This document shows, one piece after another, positions 9,158-21,741 of a stretch of 39,452 nt of DNA. Each line of letters opens with the position of its first letter. Position 1 is the stretch's first letter. The position numbers and the translations under genes were made by a program. Source of the DNA: a virus (lineage: Duplodnaviria > Heunggongvirae > Uroviricota > Caudoviricetes). A model generated the notes under the pieces. It was not told the origin of the DNA. It did no database searches and was given only the letters and a program-made list of their open reading frames with translations. The stretch spans positions 1 to 39,452 of IMG/VR virus record IMGVR_UViG_3300021438_000001; one strand, 5' to 3'.

Positions 9158-12100
9158 ATGGCAGAGCAAGAAAAAACAATCGTGATCGCTGGTGCAGGCG
9201 GTGGCGGCAAAGGTGGCGGTGGCGGTGGTCGCCAAGCAGTAGAGGCAGAAGACTCGCTCCAGTCGCGGGCGATGATTTCGCTCCTCGACCTGATCGGGGA
9301 GGGCGTCATTGGCGGTTTGGTCAACGGCGGTCAGTCGATCTACCTTGACGACACCCCATTGCAAAACTCTGACGGCTCGTACAACTTCAACGGCGTGTCT
9401 TGGGACACTCGCAACGGTGAGCAGGATCAAGACGTTGTTGCGGGCTTCTCGGATGTCGAGACACCCTACAACGTCAGCGTCCAAGTTAAGAAGCTGATGC
9501 CGCACGTCATCACGGTGAATGCGCCAGCAACGGACGCCGTGCGCGTCGTTGTTTCCTTGCCTTCACTGCGTTCGCAAGATAAGACGACTGGCGACATCAA
9601 CGGCACTTCCGTCAGTTACAAGTTCAGCATCGCCATCAATGGTGGCGCGTATACCGACGTGATGGTGGATGGAGACTCCACGCTGACGATCTCGGGCAAG
9701 ACAAACTCCAAATATCAGCGCAGCCACTTGATCTACCTGCCCAAGCCTGCTGGCGCGGTCATGTGGAACATCAAGATGGAGCGCATCACAGATGACGCAC
9801 CTGACGCTTCCTTGAGCAATGAGACTTGGTTCGATTCCTACACCGAAGTGATCGACTCCAAGTTGAGCTACCCGAACTCGGCGCTCGTTGGCGTTCGCAT
9901 CGACTCCGCTCAGTTCAACCACATTCCGCAGCGTTCGTATCTGGTCAACGGCCTCTACATCCAAGTGCCGTCGAACTATGACCCTGTGACCCGCACCTAC
10001 TCTGGCGTGTGGAATGGCGGTCTGAAGGTGGCTCTGTCGAACAACCCTGCGTGGGTACTGTACGACTTGCTGACCAACACCCGCTACGGACTGGGCAATT
10101 ACTTGCAGGCGTCTCAGATCGACAAGGCGAAGCTTTACACCATCGGACGCTACTGCGACGAGCTGGTGAGCGACGGATTCAGCGGCTACGAGCCTCGCTT
10201 CGCAGTGAACACGGTCATCCAGACCCAAGCTGAAGCCTACAAGCTGATCTCCGACCTCACGTCCGCTTTCCGTGGCATGGCCTTCTGGAACGGCGGCATG
10301 GTGGGCTTCACGCAGGATAGCCCTGCATCGCCAGGCATGTTGTTCACGTCATCGAACGTGATCGACGGCATGTTCAACTACACCAGCTCCTCGCGCCGTG
10401 ATCGTCACTCTGTCGTGAACGTGACGTGGAACGACCCCACCGACAAGTTCAAACAGAAGATCGAATACGTCGAGGACGCCGACTCGGTTGCGAAGTTCGG
10501 CATTCGCAAGACAGACATTGTGGCCTTTGGCTGTACCAGCCGTGGTCAAGCGAACCGTGTGGGGCGCTGGATGCTCTATACCGAGCGCCTCGAATCGGAC
10601 ATGGTTCAATTCAAGGTCGGCCTGGACTCGGCAACGCTGCTGCCTGGCGAGATCATTCGAATCCACGACACCTACCGCGCCGGCAAGCGCATGGGCGGAC
10701 GCATTGCGGCATGTGACGCGAACTCCCTGACGCTTGACGCTCCAATTGTGCTTCAAGGCAATGGAGCAATGGTTTCGATGCGCCTCGCGGACGGCACGTT
10801 TGTGGATCGCGTCGTGCTGCAAAGCCCAGGCGAGTACTCGACTCTGACTTGGAGCGACCCGCTGACCACGCTGCCACTGACCAACTCGATGTGGATGGTG
10901 TCGGAAGCGACGCTTGAGCCGATGCTTGCTCGCGTGATCGGCATCGCACAGGACGGCACCAAGAAAGACCAGTTCCTCGTCACCGCCATCGAGCACAACG
11001 CCTCGAAGTTCGACGCCATCGAGAAGAACCTGAAGCTCGAAGAGCCAAAGACCTCGATCATTGACCCGAACGCCGTGACCATTCCGACAAACGTCGAGGT
11101 CACTGAGGCTCAGTACGAAGTCGTCCCTGGCATCATCGGTACGCGCATCACGGTTTCGTGGTTCGCCCCAATGCCGCAGTTCGAGATTCGCTGGCGTCGC
11201 ACTGGCAAATATGCGACCTCTTGGCAAACGATCACGACCACCAGCATGTCGGTGGACTTCGAGAACGTCCGCAAATCGCCGCACGAGTTCCAAGTTCGTG
11301 CGGTGAACAACTTCGGTCGCAAGTCCGACATGGTGGAGAAGTTCTACACCCCAGTCGGCAAGACGACAGCGCCTGGCGATGTTCGCAACTTCGTTGTGAC
11401 GCGCCGCACATCCGATCTTCTGCTGACTTGGGACGCCGTTGCCGACATCGACATCTCCGGCTATGAAGTGCGCGTGGGTAACTCTTGGGACGACTCCCAA
11501 CTGATCATCACGAACTTCAAGGGTACGATGATCACGCACGACCAAGATGCGGCCGGCGTGTACTTCTACCACGTCCGTTCAATTGACTCCTACGGTCAGT
11601 ACTCGGACAACGTGACGACATTCCGTCTGGTGCTTGACCCGCCAGCTCCTGTGTCGCAATTTGACTGCATCCAGTCGGCAAACCGCCTTGAGTTCCGCTG
11701 GAAGCCAAATAGCGAAGTGAACATCGTCGCTTACGAAATCCGCGAGGGTACTGAGTGGGCTACGAGCTTGCTCATCACTCAAACAATGTCCACGACCTAC
11801 ACGATGCCATCTGGCACTACGGGGTCGCGTACATTCTGGATCAAGGCTATCGCTTCGCCTGGTATCTACGCCGACGAAGCCGTCTTCGTGAACTCGGACG
11901 TGGTGAAGCCGCAGAACTCCAACGTGGTCTACGATGTAGACAAGCACTTGGAAGGTTTCCCTGGCGTCACGCATGGCGTTATTAACTACGACGACGCTTT
12001 GCAGATGGAGCCGGACTACTCTCGCGCCGAGTACCTGTTCGACGTGACGTTGCCGTATCGCCTTCGCGCTCAGAACACGATCTTTGCAGCCATCGCATCC

Positions 12101-12712
12101 GTCAGCCAGGCAACGCTCGACTGGGCGCATGCCAACTTCTCTTGGGATTCGTCTGACGGCGGCAAACCCTGGGCACCAACTGGCAACAGCACATCCATCG
12201 CCGCACAGTTCCAGATCGCTACGGACGTGGGTCTGCTGACTACTGACGTGGACGGCTGGCGTCTGAACGGGGCGCTGACGAGCGTGACAGGCATCCTCCC
12301 CACCATTTCCAAGAAGGTCACGTATGGGGAAGGGCGCTACGGCCAAGGTGTATTTGTCTCCGATCTGACCCAAGTCGGCTGGACGGTCGCAATCCCTGAC
12401 CAGTTCAGTAAGACATTCTGGATTCAACCCAAGCAGGTTACTGACGCGATCTACATCACCCTGAATGGCAGCTCCGGTCGCTTGAAAGTCGGTTACAGCC
12501 TGCGCGAAGCCGCCTTCTACCTTGAAGACGACAATGGACGCCGCAACGTGGTTCCGTTCCTTGTGTCGGTGGATGAGCGCATTTGCGTCGGTATCAGCCA
12601 AAGCGGACTGACTCGCGGACTGTTTATTGCCAGCATGGATGGCGAACAATCAGGGGCAGACGAGCAGCCTTATACGCCGGTTGGAGCGTTTACCGCCCTG
12701 ACTTTGTATTAA
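9158..12712 (+). CDS. central tail tip / host-specificity protein J (FnIII domains, C-terminal LamG/ConA-like domain)
   Basis: 1184 aa. gpJ motifs DLIGEGVIGGL, YPNSALVG, SNNPAWVLYDLLTN.RYGLG, GCTSRGQANRVGRW; FnIII-like repeats; C-terminus GRYGQG…TFWIQP. Confidence 0.9.
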   Translation: MAEQEKTIVIAGAGGGGKGGGGGGRQAVEAEDSLQSRAMISLLDLIGEGVIGGLVNGGQSIYLDDTPLQNSDGSYNFNGVSWDTRNGEQDQDVVAGFSDVETPYNVSVQVKKLMPHVITVNAPATDAVRVVVSLPSLRSQDKTTGDINGTSVSYKFSIAINGGAYTDVMVDGDSTLTISGKTNSKYQRSHLIYLPKPAGAVMWNIKMERITDDAPDASLSNETWFDSYTEVIDSKLSYPNSALVGVRIDSAQFNHIPQRSYLVNGLYIQVPSNYDPVTRTYSGVWNGGLKVALSNNPAWVLYDLLTNTRYGLGNYLQASQIDKAKLYTIGRYCDELVSDGFSGYEPRFAVNTVIQTQAEAYKLISDLTSAFRGMAFWNGGMVGFTQDSPASPGMLFTSSNVIDGMFNYTSSSRRDRHSVVNVTWNDPTDKFKQKIEYVEDADSVAKFGIRKTDIVAFGCTSRGQANRVGRWMLYTERLESDMVQFKVGLDSATLLPGEIIRIHDTYRAGKRMGGRIAACDANSLTLDAPIVLQGNGAMVSMRLADGTFVDRVVLQSPGEYSTLTWSDPLTTLPLTNSMWMVSEATLEPMLARVIGIAQDGTKKDQFLVTAIEHNASKFDAIEKNLKLEEPKTSIIDPNAVTIPTNVEVTEAQYEVVPGIIGTRITVSWFAPMPQFEIRWRRTGKYATSWQTITTTSMSVDFENVRKSPHEFQVRAVNNFGRKSDMVEKFYTPVGKTTAPGDVRNFVVTRRTSDLLLTWDAVADIDISGYEVRVGNSWDDSQLIITNFKGTMITHDQDAAGVYFYHVRSIDSYGQYSDNVTTFRLVLDPPAPVSQFDCIQSANRLEFRWKPNSEVNIVAYEIREGTEWATSLLITQTMSTTYTMPSGTTGSRTFWIKAIASPGIYADEAVFVNSDVVKPQNSNVVYDVDKHLEGFPGVTHGVINYDDALQMEPDYSRAEYLFDVTLPYRLRAQNTIFAAIASVSQATLDWAHANFSWDSSDGGKPWAPTGNSTSIAAQFQIATDVGLLTTDVDGWRLNGALTSVTGILPTISKKVTYGEGRYGQGVFVSDLTQVGWTVAIPDQFSKTFWIQPKQVTDAIYITLNGSSGRLKVGYSLREAAFYLEDDNGRRNVVPFLVSVDERICVGISQSGLTRGLFIASMDGEQSGADEQPYTPVGAFTALTLY

Positions 12713-13245: not shown

Positions 13246-15084
13246 ATGGCCGATAGCGTAAGCATCAGTCAAGCTGCTGGTACGCCGTTGGCCTGGACTT
13301 CGGCGACCTTCGCCTGGTCTGCAATTAACGCTGGTAAGGCTTGGAATAGCCTTGCCACGCTTGCCTACACCCTTTCGGTGGGTGAAACGCTGTCTGTCGC
13401 CGACCTCGGAGCGAAACAGACGCAAAAAGCGTGGTTTGAGTCCTTCAACACGGTTGACTCCCACGTCCGTCAAGTAGGAAAGGCGCTCGCAGAAAGCGTC
13501 ACAACGAGCGATACCCTGCGCTTCGACAACTTCAAAGGGTTGTTTGAGAGCGTTAGCTTCCTCGAAGTGATGGGGAAGGGTGTCGCAAAGCCATTCTCCG
13601 AACAGTTCAGCACCACCGACGCCTACGCCCTGATGTTCACCAAAGCGGCCCTTGAAGGGCTTTCGGTGCTTGAGGCGCTTAATCGTAGCCAGACAATGCG
13701 CCTGGCCGAGACGGTCGGGGTGGGTGAGAACCTGTCCAAGACCGTTGCCAAACCGTTTTCCGAGAACGTCCAAGCGTCCGAGACGCTTCGCTTCGATGCG
13801 ACCAAAGCGGTTGGCGAAGCTGTTCAAGTTGGCGAGATCGCTGCAAAGAACGTGACGATGCCGAAAGGCGAGTCTATCGGCGTTTCTGAGTTTGCCTATC
13901 GAGACATTGGCAAAAACGCCTATGAATCGTTTGGTGTTGCGGATTACGCATTCCGAGACATCTCGATGGCGGTGTTCGAAACGCTTGGCGTTAAGGACTG
14001 CTACATCGACCACATCGCCTTCGTGATCAGCGTTCTCGAACACATTCATGTCGGCGAAGTTCTTGGCAACGACTTCACCCGACCTCTATCGGAGTCGTTC
14101 GGCATCTCTGACCACGCCGCCAGTGGTCTGGAGAAAGATTTCTTCGAAGCGATGTCCATCGGCGACGCACTTCGTAAGGCGCAGACGCTTGTCTCCAAAG
14201 AGAACGTGCAACTCGGGGAAAACCTCGCAAAGTCGGTAACGCTTCCAAAGAGCGAGTCGCTCGGCGCAACTGACGCACCAAGCAAGACAATCACCAAGGC
14301 TGCATTCGAAAGCGTTGCAGTGGGTGAGCAAGTTGCGAAGCTGGCAGACAAGATGCTGGCCGAAGCGGTGCATGTCGGTGAGAACATCCAAAAGCGTTCG
14401 ACCGTCGCCGCCTCTGAATCTCTGACAATCACAGAAACGCTCTTTGAGAAGAGCATTACTCTGGCTGTCCATGAAACCATCGGCATGATGGAGCTGTTTG
14501 GTCGCTCTGTTGGCTACCACGTCTACATCAGCGAAGGCTTTAGCACATCGGATGCGCTCAAGAAGGCGTCCAAGCTCTCCATTGCGGAATCGCTGTCTCT
14601 GTTTGACGAGTACCGTCGCCACGCGAACGCAGTGATGTCGGACATGATTGTCTCGACCGAGCCTCTGACGCTCGCCAAGTTCATGCAAGTTGTGGACGCC
14701 GGTCGCGCCCCAGGCTTTGCCCCGTTCCGAGACTTCATCCCTGGCGACTACGAGTACCAAACCGCGATTTTCCGCGCCGTTTTGAAGTCCACGACTTCTG
14801 ACCGCGCCAAGCTCAAGCAAATGAAGGTAACAGTGGATGTGCCGGACGTGTTTGATCGCGGGACCGCCGTCATCACGGCCGACCAAGCAGCTAATGGCAT
14901 TCGCATCATCTTCAGCCGCTCGTTCCACATCACCCCTGAGATCACCGTGACGCTCAAGGGCGGGACCGTTCTGGCAATTCCCAAGGTCATCAACCCCGAT
15001 GACGGCGGGTTCACCCTCGTGCTTGAAACCCCGCAAGGTCAACGAGTTGCTGGCACCGTCTCTTGGTCTTCACAGGGTTATTGA
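13246..15084 (+). CDS. long fibre protein with about 23 tandem 18-aa repeats and a tail-tip-like C-terminal domain
   Basis: 612 aa. Repeat consensus E-[ST]-h-x-h-x-[DE]-x-h-x-K-x-h-x-K-x-h-x from nt 13384 to 14607. C-terminal DVPDVFDRG…FSRSFHITPEITVT…GFTL…VSWSSQGY. Confidence 0.7.
   Translation: MADSVSISQAAGTPLAWTSATFAWSAINAGKAWNSLATLAYTLSVGETLSVADLGAKQTQKAWFESFNTVDSHVRQVGKALAESVTTSDTLRFDNFKGLFESVSFLEVMGKGVAKPFSEQFSTTDAYALMFTKAALEGLSVLEALNRSQTMRLAETVGVGENLSKTVAKPFSENVQASETLRFDATKAVGEAVQVGEIAAKNVTMPKGESIGVSEFAYRDIGKNAYESFGVADYAFRDISMAVFETLGVKDCYIDHIAFVISVLEHIHVGEVLGNDFTRPLSESFGISDHAASGLEKDFFEAMSIGDALRKAQTLVSKENVQLGENLAKSVTLPKSESLGATDAPSKTITKAAFESVAVGEQVAKLADKMLAEAVHVGENIQKRSTVAASESLTITETLFEKSITLAVHETIGMMELFGRSVGYHVYISEGFSTSDALKKASKLSIAESLSLFDEYRRHANAVMSDMIVSTEPLTLAKFMQVVDAGRAPGFAPFRDFIPGDYEYQTAIFRAVLKSTTSDRAKLKQMKVTVDVPDVFDRGTAVITADQAANGIRIIFSRSFHITPEITVTLKGGTVLAIPKVINPDDGGFTLVLETPQGQRVAGTVSWSSQGY
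13384..14607 (+). repeat. protein-level 18-aa tandem repeat array (54 nt period)
   Basis: Nineteen units of exactly 18 aa, three of 19-20 aa, and a truncated 23rd unit, e.g. ETVGVGENLSKTVAKPFS / ENVQASETLRFDATKAVG / ESIGVSEFAYRDIGKNAY. Confidence 0.9.
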
Positions 15085-15137: not shown

Positions 15138-16136
15138 ATGCAAAGTTATCAGGACATCCCAGATACCACAACGCTGACGGCTTCTCGCAGTCTGTTGCTG
15201 AACAACATTCTGACGGCGCTGTCGCAGTCGTCCGGCACTGCATTCCCCACGACCAACTTGGTTCTGGGCATGCCCTGCTATCGCTCCGATCTGAATAAGA
15301 GCTACATCCTCACCAACCTTACCGGCCCCGTCTGGACGTTGGAGCAGGATTACGCTCGTACCGCTGCTTATCTCGATGACAACATCGCGTCGGCAACCAA
15401 ACTTCAGACGGCTCGCACGATTAGCTTGTCAGGCGATATTTCGGGTAGCGCATCGTTTGACGGTACGGCTAACGCCGCGATCACCGCAACGCTTCCCAAT
15501 ACCGGCGTCACTGCCGGCACCTACACCGCCGCAACAATCACTGTGGATGCAAAAGGTCGTGTGACCTCGGCATCCGCAAGCACTTTGGTTTCCAGCTTTC
15601 AAGGTCGTACAGGAGCGGTGACGCTTGCATCTTCGGACGTGACTGGCGCTCTCGGCTTCACGCCGATGAACACATCTAACACGACATTCAGCTCGATCAC
15701 CATTTCCTCGACGGCCAACTACATCTATTTGGCTGACACCGACTGGGGCAATCGCTACATCCACAGCAATGGCGGTTTGTCTGGCTTTCTTGACTCTTCC
15801 GGCAACTGGTGTGAGTACAACGATAATGCCGGCAACATCTGGTCGAAGGCTTATGGTTGGCTGCACGGCTATTTCTTTAGCACGGTTGATAACTGCTCTG
15901 TCCTGCCTGGCTCCTATAGCTATTACGTGTCAACGGCAAACGCAGCCGCTTATGTTCATAACGGGAACACGGGAAATTGCTACAACGGCAATAACTGCAC
16001 AACGGTTGCGGCGAACTGCGGCGGTTTGAACGCCTACAACGGTGTGCTGATTGATAACGGCTCATCCATTGCGCTGCGCACATACCAATACAACTTCAAC
16101 TGCGCTTGCAACTGCGATTGCAATTGCTCCTGCTAA
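15138..16136 (+). CDS. tail fibre protein with a Cys/Asn-rich C-terminal peptide
   Basis: 332 aa. Fibre repeats ATKLQTARTISLSGD.SGSASFDG, TGVTAGTY…VDAKGRVT, VSSFQGRTGAVTL and RYIHSNGG.SGFL…YGWLHGYF. The last 81 aa hold 10 Cys and end NCACNCDCNCSC. Confidence 0.8.
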   Translation: MQSYQDIPDTTTLTASRSLLLNNILTALSQSSGTAFPTTNLVLGMPCYRSDLNKSYILTNLTGPVWTLEQDYARTAAYLDDNIASATKLQTARTISLSGDISGSASFDGTANAAITATLPNTGVTAGTYTAATITVDAKGRVTSASASTLVSSFQGRTGAVTLASSDVTGALGFTPMNTSNTTFSSITISSTANYIYLADTDWGNRYIHSNGGLSGFLDSSGNWCEYNDNAGNIWSKAYGWLHGYFFSTVDNCSVLPGSYSYYVSTANAAAYVHNGNTGNCYNGNNCTTVAANCGGLNAYNGVLIDNGSSIALRTYQYNFNCACNCDCNCSC

Positions 16137-16145
16137 AGAAAGATC

Positions 16146-16943
16146 ATGATGAAAGTTCTTGGAGTTAAAAACGATCACGTTTCGCCAGGGTTTCGCCCGA
16201 CAGCGAAGTTCCACTACGATCAATCCACCGAGATTCTAACCGTGGACTTTGAAATGTCCGCGACCAAGTGTGGTGCAGATGGTTTGCCCATGCCAGACAT
16301 TGAGCCGGCCATTTATAACGCATCTGCCTCAGTCAGCATGAAAGAACTTCGTGCGCGACCTGATTGGGCGGCTCATCAGACGTACTTTCTGGCGGTAACG
16401 ACCGACTTCGAATTTGCGCCAATCTTCCCTCTGTTTGTTGAAACATTGCCGTTGCGCGAAACAGCGCCAGAGTATGCAGCTCGCACGAAGGTGAACTTGG
16501 CTGTTGGCATTAACGTGCCGTTTTCCGACTCAACGGACGATGTGTTTATTACCGTGAACCTGAATGTCGACGCTACGGATGCCAATTTTGTCGTCACTGG
16601 CGATCTGACCCGCGAATGGAGCCAAGTATCAACCAGCGGCGTTGAGCGAGTCCTCAAGTTCCCAACGATTACCGCAACCGCCCCTGCGACAGTTGCGGCG
16701 GGTGGAACTGCGGAGATTCAACTTCGCGTGGAAGATTCGGCCGGCAACCTGCAAAACCGCAACACGGAAGTGTTCGTGGAGCCGGTGTTTGGCATTACCA
16801 GCGGTACGCGAGTGCAAATCATCAACGGCGTTGGAACACTTCAACTGTCTGCGCTTGGTCTGCCGGTTGGTGGCGAAGCCCGAGTCAAACTCGGATGGAA
16901 ATACTACCCAGGCGCAACGGATGTGCGAATCAAGGTGATTTAA
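16146..16943 (+). CDS. hypothetical protein with a C-terminal Ig-like (Big-1-like) domain
   Basis: 265 aa. C-terminal PATVAAGGTAEIQLRVEDSAG…TRVQIINGVGTLQL…ARVKLGWKYYPG looks like a beta-sandwich. The start may be ATG 16149. Confidence 0.55.
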   Translation: MMKVLGVKNDHVSPGFRPTAKFHYDQSTEILTVDFEMSATKCGADGLPMPDIEPAIYNASASVSMKELRARPDWAAHQTYFLAVTTDFEFAPIFPLFVETLPLRETAPEYAARTKVNLAVGINVPFSDSTDDVFITVNLNVDATDANFVVTGDLTREWSQVSTSGVERVLKFPTITATAPATVAAGGTAEIQLRVEDSAGNLQNRNTEVFVEPVFGITSGTRVQIINGVGTLQLSALGLPVGGEARVKLGWKYYPGATDVRIKVI

Positions 16944-17500
16944 TGCTCACACAGATTTTTGCGACCCCAATTTATCGGGGCGCATTGGGGATTCAGGGTC
17001 AGCAGCGTGACACGTATCGAGAACGAGCGATCTTGGCCTATGACACATACAACGCGAATGGCAAGCCGTGGTCGCGCTCGACCCGTGAATCTCTTGAGGT
17101 TTGCGACCCGATGTTTGCCCCGATCTTCCAGGCTGTGAAGCAACGCACCGAGCTGGAGTTCGGCGTCAAGGTTTCGCACATTACCGGACGAGAACTGGTT
17201 CAGAAGACGCATGACTTCGTGCCTCCGCATGTTGAGTCATCGCACCTGTCGGCGATCTATTGGATCGACTGCGACGCTCATCCAGACGGTTCTAAAGACG
17301 AGCATGACGGCTGTCTTGTTCTGAATCACCCTGCTGGTTCGTTCGGCTCTAAATGCCTGCCTGACGAACGCAGAAACTACGTTGTTGAGCCGCGACCCGA
17401 TGCGCTGCTCATTTTTCCGAGTCACATTCTCCACTTTGGGCATGTGTACCTCGGTCAGCGTCCAAGCGTAGAAATTCACTTTGAAATGGAGATTGCATAA
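16943..17500 (+). CDS. putative 2OG-Fe(II) oxygenase
   Basis: Start reassigned to ATG 16943 (TAATG overlap), 185 aa. IFATPIY, PPHVESSHLSAIYW (H-x-E), GCLVLNHP, VEPRPDALLIFPSHILH (distal His). Confidence 0.75.
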   Translation: MLTQIFATPIYRGALGIQGQQRDTYRERAILAYDTYNANGKPWSRSTRESLEVCDPMFAPIFQAVKQRTELEFGVKVSHITGRELVQKTHDFVPPHVESSHLSAIYWIDCDAHPDGSKDEHDGCLVLNHPAGSFGSKCLPDERRNYVVEPRPDALLIFPSHILHFGHVYLGQRPSVEIHFEMEIA

Positions 17501-18837
17501 TGCCCGTATTTAAGATCACTGGAATCAACGAGCGCGGAGAAAAGCGGACGTTTGAGTACAACAACTTCACCAGCGAGTTCAAGGACGCCTGGGGGAACCC
17601 GATTACGCAATTGCTTGAAGTGCAAGAGCGCGGCCTTGCTATCGTCACGAGCAAAGAAACGCCCGCTGGCAAAGCAACGCCCCGAGTTTTGAAAATCTCT
17701 CTGGGTCTGTCATGCAACTACGAGTGCGAGTATTGCAGCCAGCGTTTCGTGCCCCGTGCCGGCGAGACAAACCCAGGCGACGTTGAAGAATTCATGGGGT
17801 CGCTGGACAACTGGGTGACAAAACCGCCAGAGAAGATTGAGTTCTGGGGTGGTGAGCCGTTCGTCTACATTAAGACGCTTCGCCCACTGTCGGAAGCTCT
17901 GAAAGCGAAATACCCTGATGCCGTGATGTCCATCATCACGAACGGTTCGCTTTTGACGAAGGAGCTGAATGACTGGATCGAGAAGATGGAGTTCCAGATC
18001 GGTATTTCCCACGATGGTCCTGGGCAACACGTTCGCGGCCCAGACCCGCTTGCAGACCCCAAGACAAAAGAAGCGATCATGGACTTGTATGCGCGCCTGA
18101 TGCCCAAAAAGCGCATCAGCTTCAACGCCATGATCAACCGCCACAATATGTCGCGGGCGGCAGTACAGAAGTACTTCCAAGAACTGACTGGCGATGCAGA
18201 CCTCTACATCGGTGAGGGTTCATTCGTGGATGCCTATGACGAGGGCGGTCTTGCGAACTCGCTGAAGCCGGAAGACGTGGCGCTGTATCGCAATCGTGCA
18301 TTCGCAGAGATTCGAAGCGGCAAAGCTGACAGGTTCGGCGTCGTGGCCAATCGTATCCAGTCGTTTGTAAACTCCATTCGCACATCGCGTCCGGCAAGCT
18401 CACTGGGTCAGAAGTGCGGCATGGATCGCACCGACAACATCGCGGTTGACCTGAAGGGCAACATCCTTACCTGCCAGAACGTGAGCGCGGCTGGCATCGC
18501 TCCTAACGGTGATTCGCACAAGATCGGTCACGTCTCTGATCTGGACAATGCAAAGCTCACAACGGCAACTCACTGGTCGAAGCGCGAGGAATGTCCGAAG
18601 TGCCCCATGCTGCAAATCTGTTCTGGCTCGTGCATGTTCCTCGAAGGGCCATTGTGGGACGCTTCGTGCGACAACGCATTCTCGGACGCAGTGCCGATCT
18701 TTGCTGCTGGCATGGAGTTCTTGACTGGGTTTGCCCCTATCCGCATCGACGGGCCGCAGCGTGAAGATCGGAAAGACCTGTGGAAGACGGCGCCAGTGCC
18801 TCAGAAGCGTGTCATCCCGATCAAGGCGGCAGCGTGA
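17500..18837 (+). CDS. radical SAM / SPASM-domain protein
   Basis: 445 aa. CNYECEYC (CxxxCxxC), FWGGEP, SIITNGSLL, GISHDG, and a complete SPASM motif C-x13-G-x4-C…C-x2-C-x5-C-x3-C-x11-C. Confidence 0.92.
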   Translation: MPVFKITGINERGEKRTFEYNNFTSEFKDAWGNPITQLLEVQERGLAIVTSKETPAGKATPRVLKISLGLSCNYECEYCSQRFVPRAGETNPGDVEEFMGSLDNWVTKPPEKIEFWGGEPFVYIKTLRPLSEALKAKYPDAVMSIITNGSLLTKELNDWIEKMEFQIGISHDGPGQHVRGPDPLADPKTKEAIMDLYARLMPKKRISFNAMINRHNMSRAAVQKYFQELTGDADLYIGEGSFVDAYDEGGLANSLKPEDVALYRNRAFAEIRSGKADRFGVVANRIQSFVNSIRTSRPASSLGQKCGMDRTDNIAVDLKGNILTCQNVSAAGIAPNGDSHKIGHVSDLDNAKLTTATHWSKREECPKCPMLQICSGSCMFLEGPLWDASCDNAFSDAVPIFAAGMEFLTGFAPIRIDGPQREDRKDLWKTAPVPQKRVIPIKAAA

Positions 18838-19589
18838 AGATCATCGGCATCCCTCTCACGTCTGAGGGGGTTGCGTCAGAATTCATGCAGGCGGTTGCTG
18901 GCGACAAGATTCTGGTGAGCGCCTCGCACATCAAGCACTGGGCGCCTGAAGAGAACAATGACTTCGTGTGTGCCCAGGCTGGCTACCGATACCTGATCTC
19001 TGAAGGCTACTGTCTGCTTACCGAAGCGGAGTTCTGGCTGCTGCATCGGCACAATGATTTGCCTGCCAAGGTCATTGTCTCCGTCAACGCCTGGCTTTCA
19101 CCAAGCGGGGCGCGGCACTGGCCGTCAGAGGCGGCAACGCTCGTCATGGGGTTTCTGGATCGGCTGCAAGCGACGACAGACCGTGAGATCGGTTACATCT
19201 GCCAAGGTAGCCCAAAGCTGTATGACAGCCTGGCCGCCGAGCTGATCATGGCGCTTGATTGCGAAGTGATCGACACCCCATCGTCGGCCGATCTTGCGTA
19301 CTCGGCGATTCGGCAGCATAACCCACTTCCCAAGTACATCCTCAGTCGGTCGCATTACGACGATTTGAATGTCGGATGCGCCAATGTAATCGGCTCTTTT
19401 GGTGGGATTTACGCGCACACGCCCCATTTCTTGTCACAGATTGATAAGGCAAGTAGAATCTGGGCTGTGCGAATCGGCGATAAGAGCGAGATCGAATCGC
19501 TCGGCGTTGAGGAGCTGCGTTCTAGGATGCAGTCAAATGATGGGAGTCTGAATAGCCAGACCCTGATTATCGAAGTTCAAGAAGGATAA
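18834..19589 (+). CDS. hypothetical protein resembling class III (tetrapyrrole/borosin-like) SAM methyltransferases
   Basis: GTG start 18834 overlaps the radical SAM stop; 251 aa. IGYICQGSPKLY…EVIDTPSSADLAYSAI aligns by eye to the family's GDP/GHP…VxPGxS motif. Remote similarity, not searched. Confidence 0.45.
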   Translation: MKIIGIPLTSEGVASEFMQAVAGDKILVSASHIKHWAPEENNDFVCAQAGYRYLISEGYCLLTEAEFWLLHRHNDLPAKVIVSVNAWLSPSGARHWPSEAATLVMGFLDRLQATTDREIGYICQGSPKLYDSLAAELIMALDCEVIDTPSSADLAYSAIRQHNPLPKYILSRSHYDDLNVGCANVIGSFGGIYAHTPHFLSQIDKASRIWAVRIGDKSEIESLGVEELRSRMQSNDGSLNSQTLIIEVQEG

Positions 19590-19922: not shown

Positions 19923-20213
19923 ATGACGAATCTAAAAGAAATGGCCGAGGTGTTGGGCCAATTCAAACATCGTTCCTACTGGAACCGTGAGAACACCTTG
20001 GAGTTCATTGCCTTCATGACGAAAATCGCCATCATTGTGCCTGGCCTGATTTTCGGCGTGCAGTGGTGGTGGCTCTACATCATCGCGTTCTTCACGAGTC
20101 TCATCCTTGTGCTGACATCCACCGTGAAGACGCTCCCCACAATTATCGTATTCAACTTCGCATGGATGGCTATTGCGGCAACCAGCGTGACAAAACATTT
20201 CATTGGAGCCTGA
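19923..20213 (+). CDS. small membrane protein (about 3 TM segments)
   Basis: 96 aa with three hydrophobic stretches (IAIIVPGLIFGV, WWLYIIAFFTSLILVL, IIVFNFAWMAIAA). Confidence 0.7.
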   Translation: MTNLKEMAEVLGQFKHRSYWNRENTLEFIAFMTKIAIIVPGLIFGVQWWWLYIIAFFTSLILVLTSTVKTLPTIIVFNFAWMAIAATSVTKHFIGA

Positions 20214-20214
20214 C

Positions 20215-21741
20215 ATGCGCCCAGTCAAGAATGTCGTAGTCGTTGGTGGTGGGGCGGCCGGATGGCTCGCAGCGTTGGCGGCGCAGAAGGTGTTGCCGCC
20301 CAATACATCCATCACCGTGATCGAAAGCACCAAGCTCGGCATCGTGGGTGTGGGTGAGTCCACCAACTTTGCTTTCGTCCAAGTGCTTGACCACTGTGGC
20401 ATCGACCCACTGGACTTCATTCGACATACCGAAGCCACCTTCAAGATCGGCTGTCACTTCGAGAACTTCGGCAACGATGGGAAGAGCTTCTTCATTCCCG
20501 TATCGGCGTTGCCAATGGCGGACGCGAACAATTTCCTGCCGAATCACCTGTCGTATCTTCGTGACTCCGACCTGATGCACGTTCACAAGGTTGCCACAAA
20601 CCAATCCGTCAACGACTTCGGTATCGCCAAGTTCGCATTGTCGAACCATGTTCCCTTCATCCGGACAAAAGAGGGCATTCGCAGCATCGGTGGATACCAG
20701 ATGCACATCAACGCAGGACTCTCTGCGAAGTACCTTGCAAAGACTGCGCTGGAGCGCGGTATCAACCACATCGACGCGATTGTGGAGGAGGTTGTCTGTT
20801 CAGAAGATGGGCAGATCACTGGGGTTCGACTGGACGATGGGCGGCTGGTCGAGATCGACTTCGCGTTCGACTGCACCGGATTCCGTCGCCTGATTATCGG
20901 CAAACACTTCCAAACGCCCTGGGTGGACTACACCAAGTACTTGCCTGTGGACAGCGCGATGCCGTTCATTACGCAGCACAGCAACAACCCTGTGAAGCCG
21001 TACACCCACTTCCGCGCTCGTAAGTTCGGCTGGTGCTGGAGCATTCCTACTCACAGTCGCGTGGGTAACGGATACGTCTTCGACTCAAGCCTTGTGTCGG
21101 ACGAAGACGTGCAGAAGGAGTTCCGCGAAGCAATCGACCCGAACGCTGAAGCACTCAAGCCGTTGCGCTTCAAAGCAGGGCGGTTCGAGAATGTCTGGGT
21201 GAAGAACTGCATGGCTCTGGGGCTGTCTTCTGGCTTCCTCGAACCAATGGACGGCACCAGCCTGGGTATCGCCATGAGTCAGCTCTTGAACTTCATCCGT
21301 AACCCGCAACTGATCTACACGTTGGACGAAACAGAGATCGCGGAGTTCAACGGCAGGGTGGCAAGCCTGGCTGAATTTGCACTATCCAATGTCTTCATGC
21401 ACTACGTCACTGGGCGCGACGACACGGAGTTCTGGCGCCGATTCAAGGTCGAGGACGGGCCGGCAAAGTTTCAAGAGTGGGTTGCAGCCTGGAGCCGACA
21501 CACCCCACGTCAGCGTGAAGTGGATACCGGAGAAGCATACACGTATGCGCCTTCGGCTCTCATTTGCAACTACGCAGGCACTAACTTGACCAAAGAAGCC
21601 TTCGTCCGAGAAAACGCGCTTCTGCGGCTGGATGAGGTTCTGGAGCAGACAAAGGCGGCGGTCGAGCATAACGTGCAGGAGGCCATGAAACACTGCCTTA
21701 CACAGCGGGAATTTATCAACCTTATACTAAGTCACCACTGA
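20215..21741 (+). CDS. flavin-dependent tryptophan-halogenase-like protein
   Basis: Start at ATG 20215 (SD GGAG), 508 aa. VVVVGGGAAGW (FAD-binding GxGxxG), GVGEST, ATFKIG (catalytic Lys position), FDCTGF, WCWSIP (WxWxIP halogenase signature), GFLEPMDGT. Confidence 0.88.
   Translation: MRPVKNVVVVGGGAAGWLAALAAQKVLPPNTSITVIESTKLGIVGVGESTNFAFVQVLDHCGIDPLDFIRHTEATFKIGCHFENFGNDGKSFFIPVSALPMADANNFLPNHLSYLRDSDLMHVHKVATNQSVNDFGIAKFALSNHVPFIRTKEGIRSIGGYQMHINAGLSAKYLAKTALERGINHIDAIVEEVVCSEDGQITGVRLDDGRLVEIDFAFDCTGFRRLIIGKHFQTPWVDYTKYLPVDSAMPFITQHSNNPVKPYTHFRARKFGWCWSIPTHSRVGNGYVFDSSLVSDEDVQKEFREAIDPNAEALKPLRFKAGRFENVWVKNCMALGLSSGFLEPMDGTSLGIAMSQLLNFIRNPQLIYTLDETEIAEFNGRVASLAEFALSNVFMHYVTGRDDTEFWRRFKVEDGPAKFQEWVAAWSRHTPRQREVDTGEAYTYAPSALICNYAGTNLTKEAFVRENALLRLDEVLEQTKAAVEHNVQEAMKHCLTQREFINLILSHH

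What the first reader, a model, noticed from the sequence alone, without database searches (positions are those of the whole stretch)
15891..16136. Fibre C-terminus looks like a core peptide: 7 of 10 Cys follow Asn, ending in six alternating Cys
Seen: the last 81 aa contain 10 Cys, 16 Asn and 8 Tyr. Asn-Cys occurs seven times and the protein ends N-C-A-C-N-C-D-C-N-C-S-C-stop (16098-16136). The other ~250 aa contain only two Cys. Established: ranthipeptide-type SPASM enzymes link Cys sulfur to the beta/gamma carbon of Asp, Glu or Asn, and alternating CxC arrays also bind soft metals as in metallothioneins. Inference: the tail is either the radical SAM substrate, or, in a trimeric fibre, an 18-thiol metal or Fe-S clamp that caps the tip.
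Basis: partly seen in the sequence, partly recalled or inferred. Interest (0 to 1): 0.78.

Follow-up and report, generated by a model that had tools for sequence, protein, structure and literature searches.

The report
Radical-SAM-matured Asn-Cys phage fibre tip
A phage tail-fibre protein ends in a ladder of asparagine-cysteine pairs that, in well over a hundred other phages, always sits just upstream of the same iron-sulfur "radical SAM" enzyme, so phages very probably modify the tip of their host-binding fibre chemically, which I found described in no paper.

Summary
The last 81 residues (15891-16136) hold 10 Cys, 16 Asn and 8 Tyr, with seven Asn-Cys pairs, and end N-C-A-C-N-C-D-C-N-C-S-C. 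The other 251 residues hold two Cys.

The pattern is conserved. Over 82 distinct related tails the consensus is N-C-N-C-N-C-(N/D/A)-C. In the tip bodies, 245 of 276 further Cys directly follow Asn.

The tail is tightly linked to the SPASM radical SAM gene at 17500-18837:
- 73 of 79 radical SAM loci have such a tail upstream on the same strand. Controls gave 1/79, 0/42 and 0/42.
- 33 of 33 tails found by DNA pattern have the enzyme downstream.
- The tip domains in front of the tail are unrelated to one another.

In some relatives a self-cleaving Hint domain follows the tail. The tail is therefore the mature C-terminus, not a discarded chaperone.

Best reading: the Asn-Cys ladder is the enzyme's substrate and is stapled by thioether-type links. 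The chemistry is inferred, not shown. A metal clamp is neither supported nor excluded. "Core peptide" fits only loosely, because I found no leader peptide and no sign that the tail is released.

This scan has reported the same system several times on other genomes. I found nothing on it in the papers I could search.

The parts
15138..16136 (+). Side tail-fibre-type protein, 332 aa. It has an N-terminal attachment domain, a fibre repeat (res 78-146), a beta-hairpin shaft module (res ~185-250) and an Asn-Cys tip.
   Evidence: ORF. PHROG tail-fibre families match res 78-146 (phrog_7389, E 1e-21). It lies downstream of the gpJ-like central fibre gene (9158-12712, phrog_31). The N-terminus is conserved in homologues. 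A homotrimer model passed its controls.
15690..15890 (+). Shaft module (DWGxRY..GNW..YGWLHxYFF) that carries different C-terminal tips in different proteins.
   Evidence: this part alone matches about 60 further protein clusters. In those the module is followed by S74-chaperone-like tails or other tips without Cys. It is the high-confidence part of the AF2 model and of the trimer interface.
15891..16097 (+). Tip body with four isolated Asn-Cys pairs (N252-C253, N280-C281, N286-C287, N293-C294) and the VLxDNGSxxxLR hairpin.
   Evidence: Searches show that the NC pairs, D306 and G308 are nearly invariant; 89% of internal Cys in 82 related tips follow Asn.
16098..16136 (+). Terminal Asn-Cys ladder N-C-A-C-N-C-D-C-N-C-S-C plus the stop codon. 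Proposed modification site.
   Evidence: Family consensus N-C-N-C-N-C-(N/D/A)-C with 4-7 Cys; 47 of 82 tails end exactly at the last Cys. It is the only such motif in the 108-kb phage genome.
16146..16943 (+). 265-aa protein with a C-terminal Ig-like region. A frequent but not universal member of the cassette.
   Evidence: No Pfam, PHROG or NCBIfam family. Its C-terminal part aligns with the neighbouring genes in L003 and L005 and resembles RSP15 ORF047 by eye. Homologues occur in 37 of 116 radical SAM loci.
16895..17500 (+). 2OG-Fe(II) oxygenase. The true start is probably the Met at about 16943. Accessory tailoring enzyme.
   Evidence: phrog_81 E 1.8e-12. PF13759 E 4.7e-4, below the curated cut-off. 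Oxygenase-like genes were detected in at least 66 of 116 radical SAM loci, and in L001, L003 and L005.
17500..18837 (+). Radical SAM/SPASM enzyme, 445 aa. Proposed maturase of the Asn-Cys tip.
   Evidence: PF04055 above its cut-off. SPASM domain TIGR04085 scores 35.9 bits against a cut-off of 27. C72/C76/C79 and seven SPASM Cys are conserved in 31 homologues. AF2 pLDDT 91. Nearest folds are anSME and CteB. Co-occurrence tests.

Best explanation
The 332-aa protein is a trimeric side tail fibre (receptor-binding type) of a 108-kb siphovirus. Its C-terminal tip is built around Asn-Cys dipeptides and ends in an alternating ladder, N-C-x-C-N-C-x-C-N-C-x-C. This ladder, and probably the isolated Asn-Cys pairs too, is the substrate of the SPASM radical SAM enzyme encoded 1.4 kb downstream.

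Shown: the tail-enzyme pair is one conserved, mobile module that is grafted onto many unrelated fibre tips.

Inferred: the enzyme binds a Cys thiolate at the open site of its first auxiliary Fe-S cluster. It abstracts a hydrogen from a neighbouring Asn/Asp/Ala carbon and forms thioether links, as ranthipeptide and sactipeptide synthases do. Because Asn sits directly before nearly every Cys, the acceptor may be the adjacent Asn. The result would be a redox-insensitive, protease-resistant staple at the fibre's end, made in the reducing cytoplasm where disulfides cannot form.

The 2OG-Fe(II) oxygenase(s) would add optional tailoring, for example hydroxylation. The tail stays on the mature fibre. 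In relatives a Hint domain placed directly after the ladder would cut itself off and expose the same C-terminus.
For: (1) Conservation. The NC pairs and the terminal ladder are nearly invariant in 34+ homologues. Profile over 82 unique tails: Asn at -1 in 76. The positions between Cys are almost only N, D or A (74 N; 62 N/11 D/9 A; 42 N/21 D/14 A). 245 of 276 internal Cys follow Asn.

(2) Forward association. Loci were fetched only through the enzyme (220 relatives in IMG/VR). Of these, 75 of 77 with at least 3 kb upstream have a same-strand upstream ORF ending in the ladder. Under a stricter criterion the count is 73/79, against 1/79 on the opposite strand and 0/42 and 0/42 downstream. The link holds per enzyme cluster: 40/41 at 70% identity and 12/12 at 50%.

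(3) Reverse association. Loci fetched only by a DNA pattern for NCNCNCxC: 33/33 long ORFs with a terminal ladder have the enzyme downstream on the same strand, plus 1/1 Hint variant. Chance-frame matches give 2/30.

(4) The tip domains in front of the ladder are unrelated to one another (at least six types by eye). So the ladder, not the fold, travels with the enzyme.

(5) The enzyme belongs to the class that modifies peptides and proteins. The best NCBIfam hit is the PapB ranthipeptide maturase, aligned over the whole length (E 1e-16). The nearest solved sequence is anSME, and the nearest folds are anSME and CteB. It has seven conserved SPASM Cys and no equivalent of anSME Cys261. This suggests an open iron site on the first auxiliary cluster, as in thioether synthases (my knowledge of the CteB structure).

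(6) Chemical precedent. NxxcB links Cys to an Asn beta-carbon and also accepts Ala, Gln and Asp at that position (PMC9389541). That is the same residue set found between the Cys here. TqqB links adjacent residues (same paper). PapB can also link a Cys to the C-terminal residue (PMC12373016).

(7) Hint variants. The Hint domain starts at the Cys right after the ladder, so a free C-terminus just after the ladder is the conserved end state.

(8) Fibre context.; the homotrimer model scored ipSAE 0.82 against a best control of 0.15 (caveats in the full report).
Against: There is no chemical evidence. No mass, structure or proteomic data exist for any member. The enzyme falls far below every curated family cut-off (61 bits against 340 for PapB). 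It is equally close to anSME, which oxidises Cys to formylglycine rather than cross-linking it. No leader peptide or canonical RRE was found. The AF2 and trimer models leave the ladder at low confidence, so its geometry and its accessibility in the folded trimer are unknown. Ralstonia phage RSP15 pairs the enzyme with a much reduced tail (..NTNCQCGN), so a long ladder is not required. Gene adjacency cannot show which residue is modified.
Confidence: 0.6

Rival explanations
1. Metal or Fe-S clamp. In the trimer the alternating Cys of three chains face the threefold axis and bind soft metals or an iron-sulfur cluster, much as the HxH motifs of the T4 gp37 tip bind iron. The thiols stay unmodified.
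For: The alternating C-x-C pattern continues an alternating aromatic/polar strand pattern (positions -6, -4 and -2 are Y/T/F), which fits one face of a beta-strand. The protein is predicted to be a homotrimer. Metal-binding fibre tips are known (T4 gp37 and gp12, from my own knowledge).
Against: It does not explain the near-absolute co-occurrence with a SPASM radical SAM enzyme in both directions. It does not explain why Asn precedes 89% of isolated Cys. It does not explain tails with only two Cys (RSP15). The trimer model does not place the ladder at the interface with confidence.
Confidence: 0.12
2. A different radical chemistry on the same substrate. The enzyme might oxidise Cys to formylglycine as anSME does, or perform another change on the Asn-Cys units (epimerisation, methylation, desaturation) instead of forming thioethers.
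For: anSME is the nearest solved sequence, aligned over the full length at E 5e-7, and the top structural hit. anSME also acts on whole proteins without a leader peptide or RRE.
Against: The sulfatase motif C/S-x-P/A-x-R is absent from the tail (sequence). The enzyme lacks the eighth Cys (anSME Cys261) that fully ligates auxiliary cluster I. The residues between the Cys (N, D, A) match the acceptors of a known thioether synthase.
Confidence: 0.13
3. The ladder is only a docking tag, a C-terminal 'follower'. The enzyme, or the oxygenases, modify something else: the tip body, the Ig-like protein or a host molecule.
For: The ladder is the only element shared by all the diverse partner proteins, as a recognition tag would be. 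The enzyme has a small conserved N-terminal beta-sheet that could bind a strand.
Against: SPASM enzymes whose partner is Cys-rich usually act on those Cys (families listed). The Ig-like protein is present in only 37/116 loci. The number of Cys varies from 3 to 9, like a repeated reaction site.
Confidence: 0.08
4. The tail is a true RiPP core that is cut off and released as a free peptide, or it is a transient assembly chaperone absent from virions.
For: In related proteins the same shaft module is followed by S74-type autocleaving chaperone domains. Some loci have small 97-134-aa ladder proteins directly abutting the enzyme gene.
Against: No protease or transporter gene is conserved in the cassette. 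There is no S74 or other peptidase match. The tip body upstream of the ladder is conserved and continuous with the shaft. In Hint variants the piece expected to be cleaved off lies after the ladder.
Confidence: 0.04

Closest known systems
PapB/PapA (freyrasin) and other ranthipeptide systems, including NxxcB/NxxcA
   Same: A SPASM radical SAM enzyme is encoded next to a substrate with repeated Cys and Asn/Asp units. PapB is the best NCBIfam hit, aligned over the whole enzyme. The NxxcB acceptor is Asn, with Ala, Gln and Asp tolerated, the same residues found between the Cys here. PapB can also link a Cys to the C-terminal residue, and the ladder sits at the C-terminus.
   Different: The substrate is a 332-aa virion fibre protein, not a short leader-core peptide. 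I found no canonical RRE, protease or exporter. The spacing is N-C and C-x-C rather than C-x3-D or N-x-x-C. The score is far below the family cut-off (61 against 340 bits). The system is encoded by phages.
QhpD/QhpC (quinohemoprotein amine dehydrogenase maturation)
   Same: A SPASM radical SAM enzyme makes several Cys-to-Asp/Glu thioethers inside a folded protein subunit that remains part of the final assembly (my knowledge). TIGR03906 is among the hits (E 3e-12).
   Different: 46 bits against a cut-off of 453. The substrate and biological context are unrelated, and no quinone cofactor is involved.
anSME (anaerobic sulfatase-maturating enzyme)
   Same: It is the nearest solved sequence and fold. 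It acts on whole proteins without a leader peptide.
   Different: anSME oxidises one Cys/Ser in a C/S-x-P/A-x-R motif to formylglycine. That motif is absent here, and the phage enzyme lacks the equivalent of Cys261.
CteB/CteA (SCIFF thioether system)
   Same: Among the top three structural neighbours (5WHY/5WGG). It has a seven-Cys SPASM domain with an open site on auxiliary cluster I that binds the substrate Cys (my knowledge).
   Different: CteB has an N-terminal RRE and a 45-residue peptide substrate. The SCIFF model scores 25.6 bits against a cut-off of 425.
C-terminal maturation devices of phage fibres: S74 intramolecular chaperone, T4 gp37 HxH iron sites
   Same: They occupy the same place, the far C-terminal end of a trimeric fibre. 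Relatives of this very shaft carry S74-like tails instead of the ladder. An alternating ligand pattern in a strand recalls the HxH motifs.
   Different: There is no sequence similarity. The ladder depends on a separate enzyme, and metal binding is untested.
Hint / bacterial intein-like autoprocessing domains
   Same: Relatives (P0002, P0007, P0035, P0057, JWF gp028) carry a Hint domain whose first Cys directly follows the ladder (Hom_end_hint E 5.9e-10).
   Different: The window's protein has no Hint domain. It stops where the Hint variants would be cleaved.

Membership tests
Radical SAM / SPASM protein- and peptide-modifying enzymes (the partner enzyme, 17500-18837) | CxxxCxxC radical SAM cluster motif | tested here: met
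   CNYECEYC at residues 72-79. PF04055 scores 31.8 bits against a cut-off of 29.5. The motif is invariant in 31 homologues.
Radical SAM / SPASM protein- and peptide-modifying enzymes (the partner enzyme, 17500-18837) | SPASM domain with the seven-Cys pattern C-x13-G-x4-C ... C-x2-C-x5-C-x3-C ... C | tested here: met
   TIGR04085 scores 35.9 bits against a cut-off of 27. C306, C325, C365, C368, C374 and C378 are invariant and C390 is >=90% conserved. Fold neighbours are anSME, CteB, ChlB, TigE, SkfB and SuiB.
Ranthipeptide / sactipeptide RiPP systems (PapB, NxxcB, CteB) | Enzyme scores above the curated cut-off of a named maturase family | tested here: not met
   PapB 61 against 340 bits; SCIFF 25.6 against 425; CcpM 43 against 500.
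Ranthipeptide / sactipeptide RiPP systems (PapB, NxxcB, CteB) | Cys-rich substrate encoded next to the enzyme | tested here: met
   73/79 forward, 33/33 reverse, with controls near zero.
Ranthipeptide / sactipeptide RiPP systems (PapB, NxxcB, CteB) | Short precursor with a leader peptide, and an RRE (PqqD-like) domain on the enzyme or a partner | tested here: not met
   The substrate is a 332-aa fibre protein. The enzyme's N-terminal extension is modelled as three beta-strands without the RRE helices. No PqqD or RRE family was hit.
Ranthipeptide / sactipeptide RiPP systems (PapB, NxxcB, CteB) | Cys sulfur to carbon thioether demonstrated chemically | not testable with these tools
   Needs mass spectrometry or NMR of co-expressed protein.
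anSME (formylglycine-generating radical SAM enzyme) | Substrate motif C/S-x-P/A-x-R, and an auxiliary cluster I fully ligated by four Cys | tested here: not met
   The motif is absent from the tail (sequence). The alignment to 4K37 shows no equivalent of anSME Cys261. TIGR03942 scores 46.7 bits against a cut-off of 349.
Peptidase S74 intramolecular chaperone (autocleaved fibre C-terminus) | Match to the S74 chaperone domain at the C-terminus | tested here: not met
   No Pfam family for the whole protein at E<=0.01. S74-like tails are seen only in other proteins that share the shaft module (by eye).
Metal-binding fibre tip / metallothionein-like Cys array | Cys side chains of three chains converge on the axis and hold a metal | tested here: inconclusive
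   The trimer model passes its controls, but the ladder (residues 137-148 of the piece) is not among the confident contacts. In the monomer model the last four residues (145-148) are below pLDDT 50 and the ladder's 10-residue blocks average 49-64. Metal content cannot be tested here.
Phage tail fibre (trimeric receptor-binding protein) | Fibre repeat families, position in the tail module, homotrimer | tested here: met
   phrog_7389 E 1e-21 and other tail-fibre PHROGs. The gene lies downstream of the gpJ homologue. Trimer model ipSAE 0.82 against a best control of 0.15. Receptor binding itself was not tested.

The most novel reading that the evidence does not exclude
Phages carry out RiPP-type radical chemistry on their own virion. 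A dedicated SPASM radical SAM enzyme links each Cys to the Asn directly before it, an adjacent-residue thioether ring not yet described, or links it to a neighbouring chain. The fibre tip would become a covalently stapled, reduction-proof trimer cap. The enzyme plus Asn-Cys tag would be a portable module that can be grafted onto any fibre tip.
Probability: 0.35. Interest if true: 0.9.

Novelty: new variant of a known kind. Interest (0 to 1): 0.8.

Why it matters
If the reading is right, this is enzymatic cross-linking, or another radical modification, of a virus's host-recognition organelle. That would bring RiPP-like maturation to virion structural proteins. It would explain a radical SAM gene family (phrog_1802) that phage genomes annotate only as "radical SAM domain protein". 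It would give RiPP enzymology a new substrate logic: a C-terminal Asn-Cys tag on folded proteins, with no leader peptide. It would also offer a portable tag-and-enzyme pair for stapling proteins in the cytoplasm. For phage biology, it would point to a hidden factor in fibre stability and host range in freshwater and soil Betaproteobacteria phages. Two cultivable carriers, Achromobacter phage JWF and Ralstonia phage RSP15, make the idea directly testable.

Tried and rejected
- Pfam and NCBIfam gave no family for the fibre, the 265-aa protein or the 251/269-aa ORF at 18780/18834-19589. I do not count them as part of the module.
- Megablast of the cassette against plasmid and phage collections found nothing.
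- Foldseek with the tip model gave no significant hit. The best were fibre structures at E 0.3. The tip part of that model has low confidence.
- My first regular expression for the radical SAM motif was too strict and missed many loci. I replaced it with tblastn.
- An N-x-x-C spacing, as in NxxcA, was considered as the unit. It was rejected in favour of the N-C dipeptide: Asn is at -1 for 89% of internal Cys but at -3 for only 18%.
- An N-glycosylation sequon (N-x-C) was considered and rejected by eye, because the third position after Asn is Asn, not Cys.
- Seven literature searches found no paper on phage fibres paired with radical SAM enzymes. Hits in a cyanophage paper and a machine-learning paper were unrelated.
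Full report
CONTEXT. The window is the first 39.5 kb of a complete 108,312-bp virus record with direct terminal repeats. Upstream of the finding lies a lambda-like tail module: a gpJ homologue at 9158-12712 (phrog_31, E 8e-294), then a 149-aa protein with tail-fibre PHROG matches and a 612-aa protein. The finding lies in ORF 15138..16136 (+), 332 aa.

OBSERVATION. It is exact. The last 81 residues (15891-16133) hold 10 Cys, 16 Asn and 8 Tyr, with seven Asn-Cys pairs. The protein ends N-C-A-C-N-C-D-C-N-C-S-C (16098-16133). The remaining 251 residues hold two Cys and no Asn-Cys pair. Shuffling gives P about 2.7e-4 for seven NC pairs given the composition, and about 5e-5 for six alternating Cys.

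WHAT THE PROTEIN IS.
- Residues 78-146 match tail-fibre PHROGs (phrog_7389, E 1e-21). They also match fibre genes of many isolated phages.
- Residues ~185-250 form a beta-hairpin shaft module (DWGxRY..GNW..YGWLHxYFF). In about 60 other protein clusters this module is followed by quite different C-termini. Some have the look of S74 intramolecular chaperones, and they contain no or almost no Cys.
- The Asn-Cys tip is thus one of several interchangeable ends of the same shaft.
- A three-copy model supports a homotrimer; it does not show one. The score (ipSAE) was 0.82 and the best of 3 controls was 0.15. In the tool's calibration that mark was reached by 20 of 30 proteins solved as pairs of one chain and by 1 of 23 solved as single chains. 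The runs agree in at least 73% of contacts, and the partner's pLDDT is at least 63. The counts hold only roughly, because my own alignment and three copies were used. A pass may also reflect likeness to solved trimeric fibres.
- Confident contacts cover the shaft and the VLxDNGSxxxLRTYQY hairpin, but not the ladder. The ladder is also the weakest part of the monomer model: its last four residues are below pLDDT 50, and the 10-residue blocks covering it average 49-64.

CONSERVATION.
- A search with residues 185-332 found 34 homologues. An exhaustive search found 114 cluster representatives.
- In the alignments, N252/C253, N280/C281, C294, D306, G308, N321/C322, C324, C326 and C328 are invariant or nearly so.
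- Over 82 non-identical tails linked to the enzyme, the profile is (T/Y/F)-N-C-N-C-N-C-(N/D/A)-C-x-C. Asn precedes the first Cys in 76 of 82.
- The residues between Cys are almost exclusively Asn, Asp or Ala. Most ladders have 4-7 Cys. 47 tails end exactly at the last Cys and most of the rest 1-3 residues later, the longest 7.
- In the tip bodies outside the ladder, 245 of 276 Cys directly follow Asn (background Asn 12%). Asn at -3 is found in only 18%. The conserved unit is therefore the Asn-Cys dipeptide.

LINK TO THE RADICAL SAM ENZYME.
- Downstream lie a 265-aa protein with an Ig-like C-terminal part (16146-16943), a 2OG-Fe(II) oxygenase (about 16943-17500) and a 445-aa radical SAM/SPASM enzyme (17500-18837).
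- Three homologous fibres on different phage backbones show the same order: fibre, one to three small genes including oxygenases, then the radical SAM gene.
- Forward test. Starting from the enzyme alone (220 relatives in IMG/VR, the 80 best fetched), 75 of 77 loci with enough upstream DNA have a same-strand ORF ending in the ladder. Under a stricter rule the count is 73/79, against 1/79 on the opposite strand and 0/42 and 0/42 downstream.
- The link is not due to a few lineages. It holds in 40 of 41 enzyme clusters at 70% identity and in 12 of 12 at 50%.
- Reverse test. Starting from a DNA pattern for N-C-N-C-N-C-x-C, all 33 ORFs of at least 90 aa with a terminal ladder and at least 3.5 kb downstream have the enzyme downstream on the same strand. 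So does the one Hint variant. Matches in short, chance frames give 2 of 30.
- The domains in front of the ladder are mutually unrelated, at least six types by eye. Some partners are small 97-134-aa proteins that abut the enzyme gene.
- Oxygenase-like genes accompany at least 66 of 116 loci and the Ig-like protein 37 of 116. The ORF at 18834-19589 is found in only 3 and the halogenase in 1.
- The core module is therefore the ladder plus the radical SAM enzyme, with the oxygenases as frequent accessories.

THE ENZYME.
- It has the CxxxCxxC motif and a seven-Cys SPASM domain, conserved in 31 homologues down to 21% identity.
- The best curated family is the PapB ranthipeptide maturase, aligned over the full length. 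It scores far below the cut-off (61 against 340 bits). Many other Cys-peptide maturases, anSME and QhpD follow.
- The nearest solved sequence is anSME (E 5e-7). A confident AF2 model (pLDDT 91) has anSME, CteB, ChlB, TigE, SkfB and SuiB as nearest folds.
- In the profile alignment to anSME, the phage Cys306 matches anSME Cys255, and nothing matches anSME Cys261. So auxiliary cluster I probably has three protein ligands and an open site, as in CteB, where the substrate Cys binds there. The structural facts about anSME and CteB are from my own knowledge, and the inference is mine.
- The N-terminal 60 residues are modelled as a small three-stranded sheet, not a winged-helix RRE.

HINT VARIANTS.
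- Several homologues of about 500-700 aa continue after the ladder with a domain of about 165 aa. Examples include P0002, P0007, P0026, P0033, P0035, P0057 and gp028 of Achromobacter phage JWF.
- That domain matches Hint families (Hom_end_hint E 5.9e-10 and Vint, both above their cut-offs for P0035).
- Its first profile position is the Cys right after the ladder, as in ..NCNCS|CFPAGT.. in JWF.
- Hint domains cleave at exactly that junction (established knowledge). The mature protein would therefore end where the window's protein ends.
- This argues that the ladder is kept and that its free C-terminal position matters.
- In JWF the enzyme gene is two genes downstream (gp030). Ralstonia phage RSP15 pairs the enzyme (ORF045) with a "side tail fiber" ending ..NTNCQCGN.

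MECHANISM.
- Shown: the ladder is conserved, it is located at the fibre's end, and it is coupled to the enzyme.
- Inferred: the enzyme forms thioether links from Cys sulfur to a carbon of neighbouring Asn/Asp/Ala.
- Precedents: NxxcB links Cys to an Asn beta-carbon and tolerates Ala, Gln and Asp as acceptors. TqqB links adjacent residues (PMC9389541). PapB links Cys to Asp/Glu and even to the C-terminal residue (PMC12373016).
- Because Asn sits at -1 of nearly every Cys, an adjacent-residue link is an attractive guess, but it is unproven.
- Functionally, such links would be a cytoplasm-compatible substitute for disulfides that locks the fibre's end. This fits the fact that relatives use S74 chaperones or Hint domains at the same position.
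- Rivals are a metal/Fe-S clamp, anSME-like oxidation, a pure docking tag, and a released peptide or transient chaperone. They are weighed in the rival section. None explains all the data as well, but the chemistry remains open.

NOVELTY. Seven full-text searches found no paper that links phage fibres to radical SAM maturation. This scan's own notes show that the same system was reported several times on other genomes, with concordant readings. Those are AI notes, not independent evidence. The co-occurrence tests here were made from scratch. I file the finding as a new variant of a known kind: SPASM radical SAM maturation of Cys-rich substrates, here applied to virion fibre proteins through an Asn-Cys tag.

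Noticed in passing
window 20203-21741 (+): A 512-aa flavin-dependent tryptophan halogenase (PF04820, E 6e-97) lies 0.6 kb downstream of the cassette. Only 1 of 116 related radical SAM loci has a homologue, so it is not part of the conserved module. Its role in a phage is unexplained.
   Followed up: partly
window 18780/18834-19589 (+): A 251-269-aa ORF directly after the radical SAM gene has no Pfam, PHROG or NCBIfam family. Homologues occur in only 3 of 116 related loci.
   Followed up: partly
L145, L149, L162/L178, L200/L201 (IMG/VR loci): Small proteins of 97-176 aa are extremely rich in Asn-Cys (for example ..NNCNCNCTYNCN..NCNCNCNCNCNC) and end 13-75 bp before the radical SAM gene. L200 has two such genes in tandem. 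They look more like classical RiPP precursors than fibres.
   Followed up: no
L208:2428-3300 (Ralstonia phage RSP15 ORF048): This isolated phage pairs a 51%-identical radical SAM enzyme with a 'side tail fiber' whose tail is reduced to ..VNCASGG....NTNCQCGN (three Asn-Cys pairs). It may mark the minimal substrate.
   Followed up: partly
window 17500-17690 (radical SAM residues 1-63): The conserved N-terminal extension is modelled with high confidence as a three-stranded beta-sheet without RRE helices. It may bind the substrate strand by beta-augmentation.
   Followed up: no
proteins P0063, P0069, P0088-P0093 and others: The same shaft module (DWGxRY..GNW..YGWL) is followed in many proteins by tails such as ..SVAYGNLVGVLIEAIKEL.., the look of S74 intramolecular chaperones. 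Other proteins end in ..GGWY.VGYA or ..IYKLKK. The shaft accepts interchangeable tips.
   Followed up: partly
L001:13661-16924: In one related phage or prophage contig the lysis genes are followed by ThsB-like TIR and TIR_2 genes and a type I restriction HsdR-like gene. This looks like a defence island next to the fibre module.
   Followed up: no
window 13246-15084 (+): A 612-aa protein directly upstream of the fibre has only a weak PHROG match (phrog_12240). It contains few or no Cys and is not linked to the ladder.
   Followed up: no
P0057 (705 aa): A homologue combines long collagen-like G-x-y repeats, the same shaft module, an Asn-Cys tip and a Hint domain in one protein.
   Followed up: no
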